Below, in pieces: positions 20,001 to 21,474 of a DNA stretch of 33,806 bases. The position numbers are program-made. The DNA is from Octopus sinensis (taxonomy: Eukaryota). Location: positions 1 through 33,806 of the forward strand of contig NW_021829878.1 in the NCBI RefSeq assembly GCF_006345805.1, given 5' to 3'. How positions within the stretch are numbered: position 1 is the first letter of the stretch; every line of letters starts with the position of its first letter.

Positions 20001-21474
20001 GCGATATATGAAAGCATGTGAATAAAATAGTCTACGTATTAATATTGTTCATATTTAGTTGTATATAAAAGAATGTTAGTCCAATTTTCAGAGTGTAGAA
20101 TTATTTTGATATTTAGAATGTACCAATAAGTCACGTGGTGTTCTTAGTAAAATTTATGGTAGGAAATAGGTTTAGTGAAGCATCTTAAAATGTTCGAAGA
20201 TATTAAACTAAAATCAAGTTTGTAATCATATTAGCAATCATTTAGTTGAAAATATTGTATTTATCGATTTATCAATTTCTGCTGTGGGTATTGCACGTGA
20301 AATTGTGCATTTATTTGTAGATATATGAATTCTTAAAATTCTTGTAGTTTTCGATGTATGAATATCTAAAATATATTCTTTTCATATAATATGTAGATGC
20401 ATCAGAAATTCTCACCATAAGAAGCCGCATTTCTATTTAAGGATCCCACACCGGAAATATTTTAGTTCGCTGGTTCAAAACATTAGTTCTTTGAGCAATG
20501 TCGACGCAATCTGAGTCTTTCTTTCAGAGCCATTATTTTTCGAATTCTCCGAACTTTGGAATTCACCAGAAGTAATGGTTAATAGTTTCAGGATTTCATA
20601 TTTAGTGCCATACTCATTCAAATTTTCGGTTAATATTTTCATAAATGGCGAAGCTTCATGTTTGCCGAGGATTGGCAGATTTTCTTTCCGCCACGAACGA
20701 AAAACCAACAGATCTGCCGTTATTGGGATTTTAAATATCTTGCCTGTTTCAGGTGCATCCACTGCGTGGAATCTTTCAACTATTTCAACTGCTTCAATAA
20801 AAATTAATTTAGGAACTCCTATTAAAGATTTACACTTATCGGCTGTCAGCTTAGAAGTTAGTGCAATTACGTCAGATCCAGCTTTCTCGTGATCTTGGTT
20901 TATAACTGCACAAATAAAGCAACCAATTTTATTTTTACGTTCAGTTTCCTTAAACTTTTCCAAATCTGTGCACATTGTTTCAAAATCGTTATAAATAGGT
21001 TCACATTTAAATCCAATACGTTCTAATGCCCTTCTAAAATCTGCAGCATCGTTTGTTGAACACTTAGGGACGACTATATAAGCTACACGTGTTTTATTTT
21101 CCATATCATATTTAGCGAAACATTTACTAAGATCTTTCTTAGTTGGTGAATGGGGCTGATCGCTTGTCCCAATGTTTGCGCTTTCAGTGTCCATGGTAGT
21201 CAATGTAAGAATGTGATGAGCTGAACTTAGTTCCGTGTATTATATATTCTTTCAGTCCTCTCAGATTGCTATCAATGCGCATGCGTTAACGAAATCCGAC
21301 CCCTGGCTTTCAACTCAAGATGTGCGCATGAATCAGAAATTGTCACCGTCAGAAGATCCATGTTCATTTGAGGTTATTACATCTGAAATATCATAGCTCC
21401 TCGGTTCAAACTTTAGTTCTTTGTGTAATGAGATTATTTGTTTTCGGCCGTTACATTCCGGTCACACACACACG

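What the first reader, a model, noticed from the sequence alone, without database searches (positions are those of the whole stretch)
20475..21194. Catalytically dead caspase kept as an intact ORF
Seen: His (SHG to NQD), Cys (QACRG to EAVEI) and both substrate-binding Arg contexts (REGS, SFR) are lost and several loops are shortened by in-frame deletions, yet 239 codons have no stop or frameshift. Core strands, the C-terminal dimer strand (TQIASTLLKELMF) and a linker Asp site (HAVD/A) remain. Neighbouring dead copies did accumulate stops. Inference: a selected pseudo-enzyme that dimerises with and inhibits or modulates the active caspases; unlike cFLIP it has no DED prodomain.
Basis: partly seen in the sequence, partly recalled or inferred. 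Interest (0 to 1): 0.85.

Follow-up and report, generated by a model that had tools for sequence, protein, structure and literature searches.

The report
Octopus dead caspase kept open
An octopus genome carries an intact gene for a caspase-like protein that has lost all its catalytic residues, sits between working caspase genes, and has stayed open across octopus species, so it is probably a non-enzymatic partner or decoy of those caspases and not plain junk.

Summary
Window 20475-21194 (-) is an uninterrupted 239-codon, single-exon ORF with a significant caspase-domain match. It lacks the His, the Cys and both S1 arginines, and seven in-frame deletions shorten its loops. The window is octopus DNA. 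The same losses and deletions occur in three annotated proteins, one from O. sinensis and two from O. bimaculoides. These four form a 100/100 clade, sister to the neighbouring active caspases. Neutral drift over the same protein distance left 0 of 1000 simulated ORFs open. The fold is predicted confidently. Residues at the predicted dimer interface are preferentially conserved in the dead clade. The promoter and first ~36 codons are about 88% identical to the active neighbour. Against strong constraint: dN/dS against the active copy is about 1, replacements are as radical as random ones, and no transcript evidence was found. Binding is only modelled. Dead caspases without a prodomain are already known in mosquitoes and nematodes, so this is a new member of a known kind. 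Orthologue DNA for a proper dN/dS test was not available.

The parts
20475..21194 (-). Single-exon ORF of 239 codons plus stop (P0001). It encodes a caspase-fold protein without His, Cys or the S1 arginines. The linker Asp D146 and the C-terminal beta6 strand are kept.
   Evidence: Translation. Pfam PF00656 at 56.5 bits. Catalytic columns. AlphaFold2 pLDDT 84, pTM 0.81. Foldseek top hits are procaspase-7, caspase-6 and caspase-3.
21092..21349 (-). 5' tract shared with the active caspase genes, covering about 155 nt of upstream sequence plus the first ~100 nt of CDS. It holds a TATA-like heptamer at 21240-21246 and a 33-nt block at 21265-21297 that is identical to both active genes and contains a short GC palindrome.
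   Evidence: 87.3% identity over 259 nt to 32014-32271. Identity profile of about 85-98% here against about 60% in the rest of the CDS. Three-way alignment. dS is 0.16-0.20 in codons 1-36 against 0.47-0.58 in codons 37-239.
5916..6902 (-). Active-type caspase paralogue A (P0002, 328-codon ORF, SHG and QACRG intact). It is the presumed partner.
   Evidence: Pfam 154.7 bits. Catalytic columns. The window's own annotated protein P0022 starts at its Met31.
32169..33155 (+). Active-type caspase paralogue B (P0003), the mirror copy of A, with 3 amino-acid differences.
   Evidence: 99.1% identity. dN 0.004 and dS 0.014 against copy A.
11228..11810 (-). Decayed caspase relic of another subfamily, with stops, a frame change and an internal deletion. 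It serves as an in-window control showing what an unselected copy looks like.
   Evidence: tblastn hits in two frames, best to P0019, P0016 and P0023 at about 38-48% identity, and three-frame translation with stops.
27243..27837 (+). Mirror copy of the decayed caspase relic.
5266..17215 (.). Left arm of the large inverted repeat. It carries active caspase A and the relic.
   Evidence: blastn of the window against itself: 5266-15297 matches 33806-23775 at 97.7% over 10092 columns, 14650-16790 matches 24587-22439 at 91.6%, and 16988-17215 matches 22426-22199 at 93.9%.
22199..33806 (.). Right arm of the inverted repeat. The dead caspase lies in the unique spacer of about 5 kb between the arms (17216-22198).
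21463..22143 (.). (CA)n array about 270 nt upstream of the dead gene. It has the same arrangement as the array at 7375-7684 upstream of active gene A.

Best explanation
The ORF is a lineage-specific octopus pseudo-caspase: a short-prodomain, effector-type caspase paralogue. It arose by local duplication of the neighbouring active caspase. It lost its catalytic dyad and S1 pocket before the O. bimaculoides and O. sinensis/vulgaris lineages split, and it has since been kept as a translatable, foldable protein.

The most likely mechanism is as follows. The gene is transcribed from a promoter that gene conversion has kept nearly identical to the active neighbour's. The protein pairs with that neighbour through the conserved beta6/helix-5 dimer face. 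The resulting heterodimers have only one active site, which tunes caspase output; whether up or down is unknown. The retained linker Asp may also let upstream caspases cleave it.

Shown here: the sequence anatomy, the age and monophyly of the dead clade, ORF survival beyond neutral expectation, a confidently predicted fold, preferential conservation of the predicted interface, and the 5' homogenisation.

Inferred: expression, binding, the direction of the effect and cleavage at D146. The fast, radical amino-acid turnover elsewhere in the protein suggests relaxed or diversifying selection outside the core and interface.
For: (1) Shared derived state. P0001, P0005 (O. sinensis, XP_029653346.2), P0006 and P0007 (O. 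bimaculoides, XP_014782016.1 and XP_014782015.1) all lack His, Cys and both arginines and share the 11-residue and other deletions.

(2) Tree. In the IQ-TREE tree of 28 rows the four form a clade at 100/100, sister at 100/99 to the active clade P0002/P0008/P0009/P0010/P0011.

(3) ORF survival. Neutral mutation of the CDS down to 58% amino-acid identity, the P0001-P0006 level, left 0 of 1000 ORFs open (mean 7.1 stops). The three internal gaps between P0001 and P0006 (1, 5 and 2 residues) are in frame. The in-window relic did decay.

(4) Coding signature. GC at codon positions 1/2/3 is 0.43/0.36/0.285, against 0.50/0.37/0.305 for the active gene. There are 0 in-frame stops against 18 and 34 in the other two sense frames.

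(5) Fold. pLDDT 84, pTM 0.81. Foldseek against the PDB gives 252 matches at E<=0.001, and the top ones are all caspases at probability 1.00 and TM 0.6-0.7.

(6) Constraint after loss of catalysis. Columns conserved in 11 active-type octopus caspases are more often identical in P0001/P0006/P0007: 56/91 against 47/107, odds ratio 2.0, p 0.016. Predicted interface residues are identical in 20/26 positions against 84/177 elsewhere, odds ratio 3.7, p 0.006. Without beta6 the figures are 13/15 against 84/177, p 0.005. Several of these (T159, W168, I207, T227) are dead-clade-specific residues that became fixed.

(7) Complex model. P0002(20-275) with P0001(20-239) scored ipSAE 0.84 against a best control of 0.00. 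The mark was reached by 51 of 78 solved complexes and 2 of 108 mismatched pairs. Runs agreed in at least 61% of contacts and the partner's pLDDT was at least 80. The interface pairs beta6 with beta6 (residues 259-269 with 226-236). Similar caspase dimers are solved, so this pass shows likeness and does not show that this copy binds.

(8) Gene order. Accession order places the dead genes next to active ones in both named species: O. sinensis ...345 (active)...346 (dead)...347 (active); O. bimaculoides ...015 and ...016 (dead)...017 (active).

(9) 5' tract. It is 87% identical to the active gene and has lower dS. N-terminal residues 1-33 are 24/34 identical to the in-window active copy, against 16-19/34 for the other pairings.
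Against: - Pairwise dN/dS against the active copy over codons 37-239 is about 1: NG86 1.12 with bootstrap 95% range 0.78-1.64, LWL85 1.19, YN00 0.88. Third positions differ less (0.342) than first and second positions (0.386).
- Replacements between P0001 and P0006/P0007 have mean BLOSUM62 of -0.70 and -0.72 (P0006 against P0007: -1.06). This is no more conservative than a neutral null (-0.55, sd 0.16; 410 and 436 of 500 simulations were at least as conservative). It is more radical than 13 other octopus caspase pairs (-0.44 to +0.19).
- Identity does not differ between predicted secondary structure and coil.
- Sites that differ between P0006 and P0007 are not enriched among sites that differ between lineages (odds ratio 0.69, p 0.42).
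- No expression evidence was found. There is no transcript-like or short fragment of the clade in the 5.8-billion-protein set.
- Neither the 239-aa nor the 209-aa form of the window's ORF is in the collection, although the window's two active genes are annotated there. No O. vulgaris dead-clade protein appeared.
- The clade was found only in Octopus.
- At the 96% identity level separating P0001 from P0005, 471 of 1000 neutral runs stay open. This copy could therefore have lost function recently.
- P0005-P0007 are automatic gene models, and I did not see their DNA.
Confidence: 0.5

Rival explanations
1. Relic in slow decay. The gene was a working pseudo-enzyme, or even an enzyme, for a long time, but in this genome it is now an unexpressed, neutrally drifting ORF that has not yet acquired a stop.
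For: - dN/dS is about 1 against the active copy.
- Replacements look neutral, and rates are not heterogeneous between independent branches.
- All 9 differences from P0005 are placed on the window's branch (0.046 against about 0).
- 471 of 1000 neutral runs stay open at that divergence.
- The ORF is absent from the protein collection although the two active genes of the same contig are present.
Against: - Four separate ORFs are open across a path of 0.78 substitutions per site, where 0 of 1000 neutral runs stay open.
- The predicted interface is conserved.
- Codon-position composition is coding-like.
- The promoter tract is kept about 88% identical to the active gene, with the TATA-like element intact.
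- The true relic 9 kb away shows what decay looks like.
Confidence: 0.25
2. Decoy or bait and not a dimer partner. The protein is kept because its linker Asp site and caspase-like surface soak up an upstream caspase, an IAP-type inhibitor or a pathogen factor. Its exposed surface evolves under diversifying selection.
For: - D146 in an xxxD/(A,G) context is invariant in all 10 aligned octopus sequences, including all four dead ones.
- An omega of about 1 or higher together with an ORF kept open and unusually radical replacements is what a mix of conserved and positively selected sites would give.
- Repeated loss of the catalytic Cys in this octopus-specific expansion (10 of 23 rows) suggests a recurring use for dead copies.
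Against: - No site-level test of positive selection could be run.
- The best-conserved surface is the dimer face, which fits the partner model at least as well.
- Nothing was found in print on octopus caspase decoys.
Confidence: 0.15
3. Assembly artefact. The palindromic 33.8-kb contig is a fold-back mis-assembly and the ORF is a chimera.
For: - The contig is essentially one inverted repeat with a 5-kb centre.
- The dead ORF's 5' end matches the active gene while the rest does not.
Against: - The arms differ by 2.3-8%, have a unique 5-kb spacer, and their coding differences are substitutions.
- An independent O. sinensis chromosome-scale scaffold encodes a 96%-identical protein flanked by active caspases on both sides.
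- The 5' tract is 87% identical to the active gene, not 100%.
Confidence: 0.03

Closest known systems
Automatic gene models XP_029653346.2 (O. sinensis, 'caspase-7-like'), XP_014782016.1 and XP_014782015.1 (O. bimaculoides, 'caspase-1' and 'caspase-7')
   Same: They form one clade with the window's ORF at 100/100 support. They share the loop deletions and the lost His, Cys and arginines, and they also lie next to active caspases.
   Different: They are 96%, 56% and 54% identical to the window's ORF. The O. sinensis model starts at the residue homologous to Met31. The O. bimaculoides pair keeps a 5-residue segment and a few C-terminal residues that the window's copy lacks. Their database names present them as ordinary caspases, and none of my searches found a paper describing them as dead.
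Dipteran caspase-like decoy molecules (Aedes aegypti CASPS18 with its paralogue CASPS19)
   Same: A short-prodomain caspase paralogue that arose by gene duplication and lacks catalytic function. It is reported to share expression with, and to modulate, the active paralogue. This comes from passages in PMC3141678 and PMC4840389, both citing Bryant et al. 2010.
   Different: The octopus clade has an independent origin, nested inside an octopus-specific caspase clade. CASPS18 is described as an enhancer; the direction of effect here is unknown. The primary paper (PMC2902568) is not held, so I know it only through those citing passages.
C. elegans CSP-3 (and CSP-2)
   Same: [quoted passage not shown]
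   Different: That same paper could not reproduce the anti-apoptotic phenotype of csp-3, a warning for the present inference. From memory only, not from any call: CSP-3 corresponds mainly to a small-subunit-like piece, whereas the octopus protein keeps both the p20-like and p10-like halves.
cFLIP(L), the vertebrate pseudo-caspase
   Same: A caspase-like domain without catalytic activity, paralogous to an active caspase (search listing and start of the abstract of PMC7586951). That it heterodimerises with caspase-8 and can either inhibit or activate it is taken from the start of the abstract of bioRxiv 10.1101/723718 and from memory.
   Different: cFLIP has tandem DEDs and acts at the DISC on an initiator caspase. 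The octopus protein has no domain besides Peptidase_C14, and its nearest solved relatives are effector caspases 7, 3 and 6.

Membership tests
Caspase domain family (Pfam PF00656, Peptidase_C14; MEROPS C14A is named from memory) | Significant match to the family profile | tested here: met
   E 4.3e-15, 56.5 bits against a curated cut-off of 21.4, residues 46-236 matching profile positions 22-231 of 233. phmmer against the PDB gives caspase-7 as best hit at E 4.1e-12.
Caspase domain family (Pfam PF00656, Peptidase_C14; MEROPS C14A is named from memory) | Caspase alpha/beta fold with the C-terminal beta6 strand | tested here: met
   AlphaFold2 pLDDT 84, pTM 0.81, with alternating strands and helices and a final strand at 225-231. 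Foldseek top hits are procaspase-7, caspase-6 and caspase-3 at probability 1.00, TM 0.6-0.7.
Active caspases (enzymes) | Catalytic His-Cys dyad (SHG ... QACxG contexts) | tested here: not met
   The His column reads Q in an NQD context and the Cys column reads V in an EAVE context, in alignments with 10 and 29 sequences.
Active caspases (enzymes) | S1 pocket arginines (Arg179 and Arg341 in caspase-1 numbering, a numbering recalled from memory) | tested here: not met
   The first lies in an 11-residue deletion. The second is Leu in P0001, His in P0005 and Ser in P0006 and P0007.
cFLIP-type pseudo-caspase | Tandem death-effector domains N-terminal to the dead caspase-like domain | tested here: not met
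   Pfam finds only Peptidase_C14 at E<=1, and only about 35 residues precede the domain.
cFLIP-type pseudo-caspase | Heterodimerises with an active caspase and changes its activity | tested here: inconclusive
   The complex model scored 0.84 against a best control of 0.00, with a beta6-beta6 interface, but similar dimers are solved, so the pass may reflect likeness alone. An effect on activity cannot be tested with these tools.
Decoy caspase of the dipteran CASPS18 kind (a functional class, not an orthologous group) | Arose by duplication of a neighbouring active short-prodomain caspase and lost its catalytic residues | tested here: met
   Sister to the active clade at 100/99. Adjacent in the window and, by accession order, in two named species. 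Catalytic residues are lost.
Decoy caspase of the dipteran CASPS18 kind (a functional class, not an orthologous group) | Co-expressed with and modulating the active paralogue | not testable with these tools
   The only indirect evidence is the 5' flank, 87% identical to the active gene's and including a TATA-like element. No expression data were available.
Non-functional pseudogene | Disrupted reading frame | tested here: not met
   No stop or frameshift in 239 codons. 0 of 1000 neutral simulations stayed open at the clade's divergence.
Non-functional pseudogene | Neutral substitution pattern (omega = 1, no site-specific constraint) | tested here: inconclusive
   Consistent with neutrality: omega about 1 against the active copy, replacements that look neutral, and no rate heterogeneity between branches. 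Inconsistent with neutrality: the interface and the sites conserved in active caspases are preferentially kept. Omega within the dead clade could not be computed because no orthologue DNA was available.

The most novel reading that the evidence does not exclude
Octopuses have built, by local duplication, a set of catalytically dead caspases. The clade studied here is one of at least four groups lacking the catalytic Cys in the octopus-specific expansion. Under this reading they are kept open while their surfaces turn over at or above the neutral rate. They would be decoys under diversifying selection, for instance baits for pathogen or endogenous caspase inhibitors, or tunable half-site partners of the active caspases. 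Their co-regulation with the active neighbour would be maintained by gene conversion restricted to the promoter and first ~36 codons. That would be a previously undescribed way of keeping a pseudo-enzyme and its enzyme in matched amounts.
Probability: 0.12. Interest if true: 0.75.

Novelty: new member of a known kind. Interest (0 to 1): 0.5.

Why it matters
Pseudo-caspases are few and mostly known from vertebrates (cFLIP), mosquitoes and nematodes, and the nematode case is disputed.

An octopus clade would add an independent origin in a lophotrochozoan. It would be old enough to be shared between species, physically linked to its presumed partner, and have a homogenised promoter.

It would also show that the large cephalopod expansion of short caspases contains many non-enzymes, which matters for anyone counting 'caspases' in mollusc genomes or interpreting their expression.

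The combination of an ORF kept open with dN/dS of about 1 makes it a candidate for adaptive evolution of a regulatory decoy. It is directly testable with a simple co-expression and activity assay.

Tried and rejected
- **Chance ORF:** rejected.
- **Mirror copy of the dead gene in the left half of the spacer:** tblastn gave only a non-significant hit at 17262-17396 (E 1.9), so the gene is single-copy in the window.
- **Wider distribution of the dead clade:** a profile search of 1.84 billion representatives gave one dead-clade representative (432 bits), and the next hit was an active caspase at 187 bits. The word-based profile search returned only the three known members above 400 bits among 20 hits. 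The 'shorter' search gave 1 hit among 78 candidates (P0028, 42% identity, not of the clade).
- **Descent from the Cys-to-Ser group:** I considered this because the O. bimaculoides copies read PSR where others read ASRG. The tree instead places the dead clade as sister to the QACRG clade.
- **Concerted 5' evolution in O. bimaculoides as well:** not supported. P0006-P0011 share 18/34 N-terminal positions, no more than the cross-species pairs at 16-19/34.
- **ML dN/dS in Biopython:** it gave an implausible 7.5 (dN 0.85, dS 0.11) and I do not rely on it.
- **Secondary structure as a proxy for burial:** no signal.
- **tRNA and Rfam scans of the window:** nothing found.
- **Literature:** searches for octopus or cephalopod pseudo-caspases and passages of PMC9389742 and PMC11463336 gave no description of these genes.
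- **Complex model:** it passed. I use it only as showing likeness to solved caspase dimers.
- **Left unchecked:**
  - Expression data.
  - Supplementary files of papers, which are closed and were not requested.
- **Human sequence:** the contig is octopus, not human.
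Full report
**What is there.** Window 20475-21194 (-) translates to 239 residues and a stop without interruption. Stop to stop the frame runs 254 codons. The other frames of the same stretch carry 5-34 stops, and flanking non-coding DNA carries about 3-9 stops per 100 codons. The open frame is therefore not a chance event.

Pfam finds one domain, Peptidase_C14, at 56.5 bits (cut-off 21.4) over residues 46-236. The best solved relatives by sequence are caspase-7, then caspase-3, -6 and -8.

The window holds two nearly identical 328-codon caspase ORFs with SHG and QACRG intact: 5916-6902 (-) and 32169-33155 (+). 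The dead ORF is 40% identical to them (107/267).

In alignments the His, the Cys and both S1 arginines are gone. Relative to the active copy there are seven in-frame deletions, of 1, 11, 4, 7, 3, 3 and 5 residues. The linker Asp (D146) and the C-terminal strand are retained.

**Context.** The contig is 33,806 bases in all, since the window's own annotated proteins list that as their contig length. It is essentially one inverted repeat.
- The arms are 5266-17215 and 33806-22199.
- They are 97.7% identical over the outer 10 kb and about 91-94% identical toward the centre.
- They flank a unique spacer of about 5 kb.

Each arm carries an active caspase gene and a decayed relic of another caspase subfamily. 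The relic lies at 11228-11810 (-) with its mirror at 27243-27837 (+), and shows stops, a frame change and an internal deletion. The dead caspase lies in the spacer, in the same orientation as the left-arm genes. Like active gene A, it has a (CA)n array a few hundred bases upstream. No tRNA or Rfam family was found.

**Organism and relatives.** All close hits are Octopus proteins.
- Three belong with the window's ORF:
  - P0005 (O. sinensis XP_029653346.2, 209 aa, 96% identical);
  - P0006 (O. bimaculoides XP_014782016.1, 247 aa, 56% identical);
  - P0007 (O. bimaculoides XP_014782015.1, 232 aa, 54% identical).
- All three share the deletions and lack His, Cys and the arginines.
- In a careful IQ-TREE analysis of 28 rows, the four form a clade at 100/100. 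That clade is sister, at 100/99, to the clade of active caspases that includes the window's.
- A profile search of 1.84 billion representatives found one dead-clade representative (432 bits), and the next hit was an active caspase at 187 bits. The clade was therefore seen only in Octopus.

Accession order indicates conserved neighbourhood. In O. sinensis the order is ...345 active...346 dead...347 active, and ...347 falls in the same 90% cluster as the window's active protein. In O. bimaculoides it is ...015 and ...016 dead...017 active. The loss of catalysis therefore predates the split of these lineages, and the active-dead-active arrangement is not peculiar to this contig.

**Is it maintained? 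Evidence for.**
- Neutral mutation of the CDS (HKY-like model, local base composition, kappa 2) down to the P0001-P0006 identity level left 0 of 1000 ORFs open, with a mean of 7.1 stops.
- The internal gaps between P0001 and P0006 are all in frame.
- Codon-position composition is coding-like.
- The fold is predicted with pLDDT 84 and pTM 0.81, and the model matches only caspases at the top of a PDB fold search.
- Columns conserved in 11 active-type octopus caspases are more often unchanged within the dead clade (56/91 against 47/107, p 0.016; Spearman 0.23, p 9e-4).
- Residues that touch the active caspase in the complex model are unchanged in 20 of 26 positions, against 84 of 177 elsewhere (p 0.006). 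This holds without the beta6 strand (13/15, p 0.005).
- Some of these interface residues are dead-clade-specific residues that became fixed.

**Evidence against.**
- Pairwise dN/dS against the in-window active copy over codons 37-239 is about 1 (NG86 1.12, bootstrap 0.78-1.64; LWL85 1.19; YN00 0.88). Third positions are less diverged than first and second positions.
- Replacements within the dead clade are as radical as in a neutral null, and more radical than in 13 other octopus caspase pairs.
- Predicted secondary structure is no more conserved than coil.
- Substitutions on independent branches do not pile up at the same sites.
- I found no transcript-like fragments.
- The window's ORF is not in the protein collection in its 239-aa or 209-aa form, although the contig's two active genes are.
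- At the small distance to P0005, an open frame is uninformative: 471 of 1000 neutral runs stay open.

My reading is that the ORF, core and dimer face are under selection. The rest of the surface, including the former active-site loops, is free to change or is being pushed to change. I cannot exclude recent loss of function in this copy.

**The 5' end.** From about -160 to +110 relative to the ATG, the dead gene is 85-98% identical per 50-nt block to both active genes. The rest of the CDS is about 60% identical.
- dS is 0.16-0.20 in codons 1-36 against 0.47-0.58 afterwards. This points to gene conversion and not merely to protein-level constraint.
- The tract contains a TATA-like heptamer (21240-21246).
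- It also contains a 33-nt block (21265-21297) identical in all three genes, holding a short GC palindrome. That this palindrome resembles an NRF1-type site is my recollection, not a test.
- A similar N-terminal affinity between dead and active copies is not evident in O. bimaculoides.
- The window's annotated active proteins, and the O. sinensis dead model, start at the Met31 position. The first 30 codons may therefore be leader sequence and not protein.

**Mechanism.** Effector caspases are obligate dimers joined through beta6; this is established knowledge and was not tested here. The complex model of P0002(20-275) with P0001(20-239) scored 0.84 against a best control of 0.00.
- The mark was reached by 51 of 78 solved complexes and 2 of 108 mismatched pairs.
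- Runs agreed in at least 61% of contacts, and the partner's pLDDT was at least 80.
- The canonical beta6-beta6 pairing was predicted.

Because such dimers are solved, this shows likeness, not binding. Combined with the conserved interface, the linkage and the shared promoter, the most likely role is a catalytically silent partner that forms half-site heterodimers and tunes the neighbour's activity. The invariant linker Asp also allows a decoy-substrate role. The direction of the effect cannot be inferred, since the precedents go both ways.

**Comparison with known systems.** The protein belongs to the caspase fold family but fails the enzyme criteria. It is not cFLIP-like in architecture, because it has no DEDs.

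The closest functional precedents are two. The first is the dipteran 'caspase-like decoy molecules', inactive duplicates that may regulate paralogues (passages in PMC3141678 and PMC4840389; the primary paper is not held). The second is C. elegans CSP-3 and CSP-2, whose reported anti-apoptotic role a later study could not reproduce for csp-3 (passages of PMC3591282). The octopus clade has an independent origin.

My searches and the passages read found no description of octopus dead caspases. The database entries are automatic models named as ordinary caspases.

**Verdict.** It is a new member of a known kind (short-prodomain pseudo-caspase or decoy). Interest is moderate (0.5), raised by the interface conservation, the promoter-restricted conversion and the open-ORF-with-omega-near-1 pattern, and lowered by the absence of expression evidence and of a proper within-clade dN/dS.

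Noticed in passing
window 5266-17215 and 22199-33806: The whole 33.8-kb contig is one large inverted repeat, 97.7% identical in the outer 10 kb and 91-94% toward the centre, around a unique spacer of about 5 kb. Accession order in O. sinensis (active, dead, active) suggests that a similar two-sided arrangement exists on a chromosome-scale scaffold.
   Followed up: partly
window 11228-11810 (-) and 27243-27837 (+): A decayed caspase relic of a different subfamily, closest to P0019, P0016 and P0023. It has stops, a frame change and loss of the first half of the small-subunit region. Its His context is kept but the Cys is replaced.
   Followed up: partly
octopus caspase paralogues P0012, P0013, P0017, P0021, P0024, P0025 (not in the window): 10 of the 23 octopus-type rows examined lack the catalytic Cys (18 rows are named Octopus, 3 are the window's own, 2 are unnamed). 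Six of the ten read Ser in an ASRG context and fall into three separate starred clades. P0024 and P0025 also lack the His and the first arginine loop. Loss of catalysis seems to recur in this expansion.
   Followed up: partly
window 21265-21297 (also about 6970-7005 and about 32065-32100): A 33-nt block upstream of the ATG is identical in the dead gene and both active genes and contains a short GC-rich palindrome. A TATA-like heptamer lies about 20 nt downstream of it. The resemblance to an NRF1-type site is my recollection only.
   Followed up: no
window 5916-6080 and 33000-33155; 1726-1776 (-): The last ~50 residues of the 328-aa active ORFs run up to the (GT)n/(AC)n arrays. The O. vulgaris model P0009 ends differently, and its last 17 residues match window 1726-1776 (-) at 94%. 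This suggests an alternative 3' exon about 4 kb downstream.
   Followed up: no
window 6813 / 32258 (Met31 of the active ORFs); 21104 (Met31 of the dead ORF): The window's own annotated active proteins (P0022 and P0178, 298 aa) and the O. sinensis dead model (P0005, 209 aa) all start at the Met31 position and not at Met1. The highly conserved first 30 codons may be 5' leader.
   Followed up: partly
window 14482-15462 and 23778-24587: 21-bp minisatellite arrays (about 47 and 39 copies) give long spurious ORFs in several frames, for example P0004.
   Followed up: no
window 648-1044, 10105-10503, 28549-28947: A dispersed repeat of about 400 bp, with copies 97% identical. One copy lies outside the palindrome.
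   Followed up: no
window 4495-4730, 17001-17215, 22176-22411: A repeat of about 230 bp (91-94.5% identical between copies) sits at both inner ends of the palindrome arms and once more just outside the left arm. It may mark the breakpoints of the rearrangement.
   Followed up: no
window 19415-19692: An 11-bp minisatellite (25 copies) lies near the geometric centre of the palindrome.
   Followed up: no
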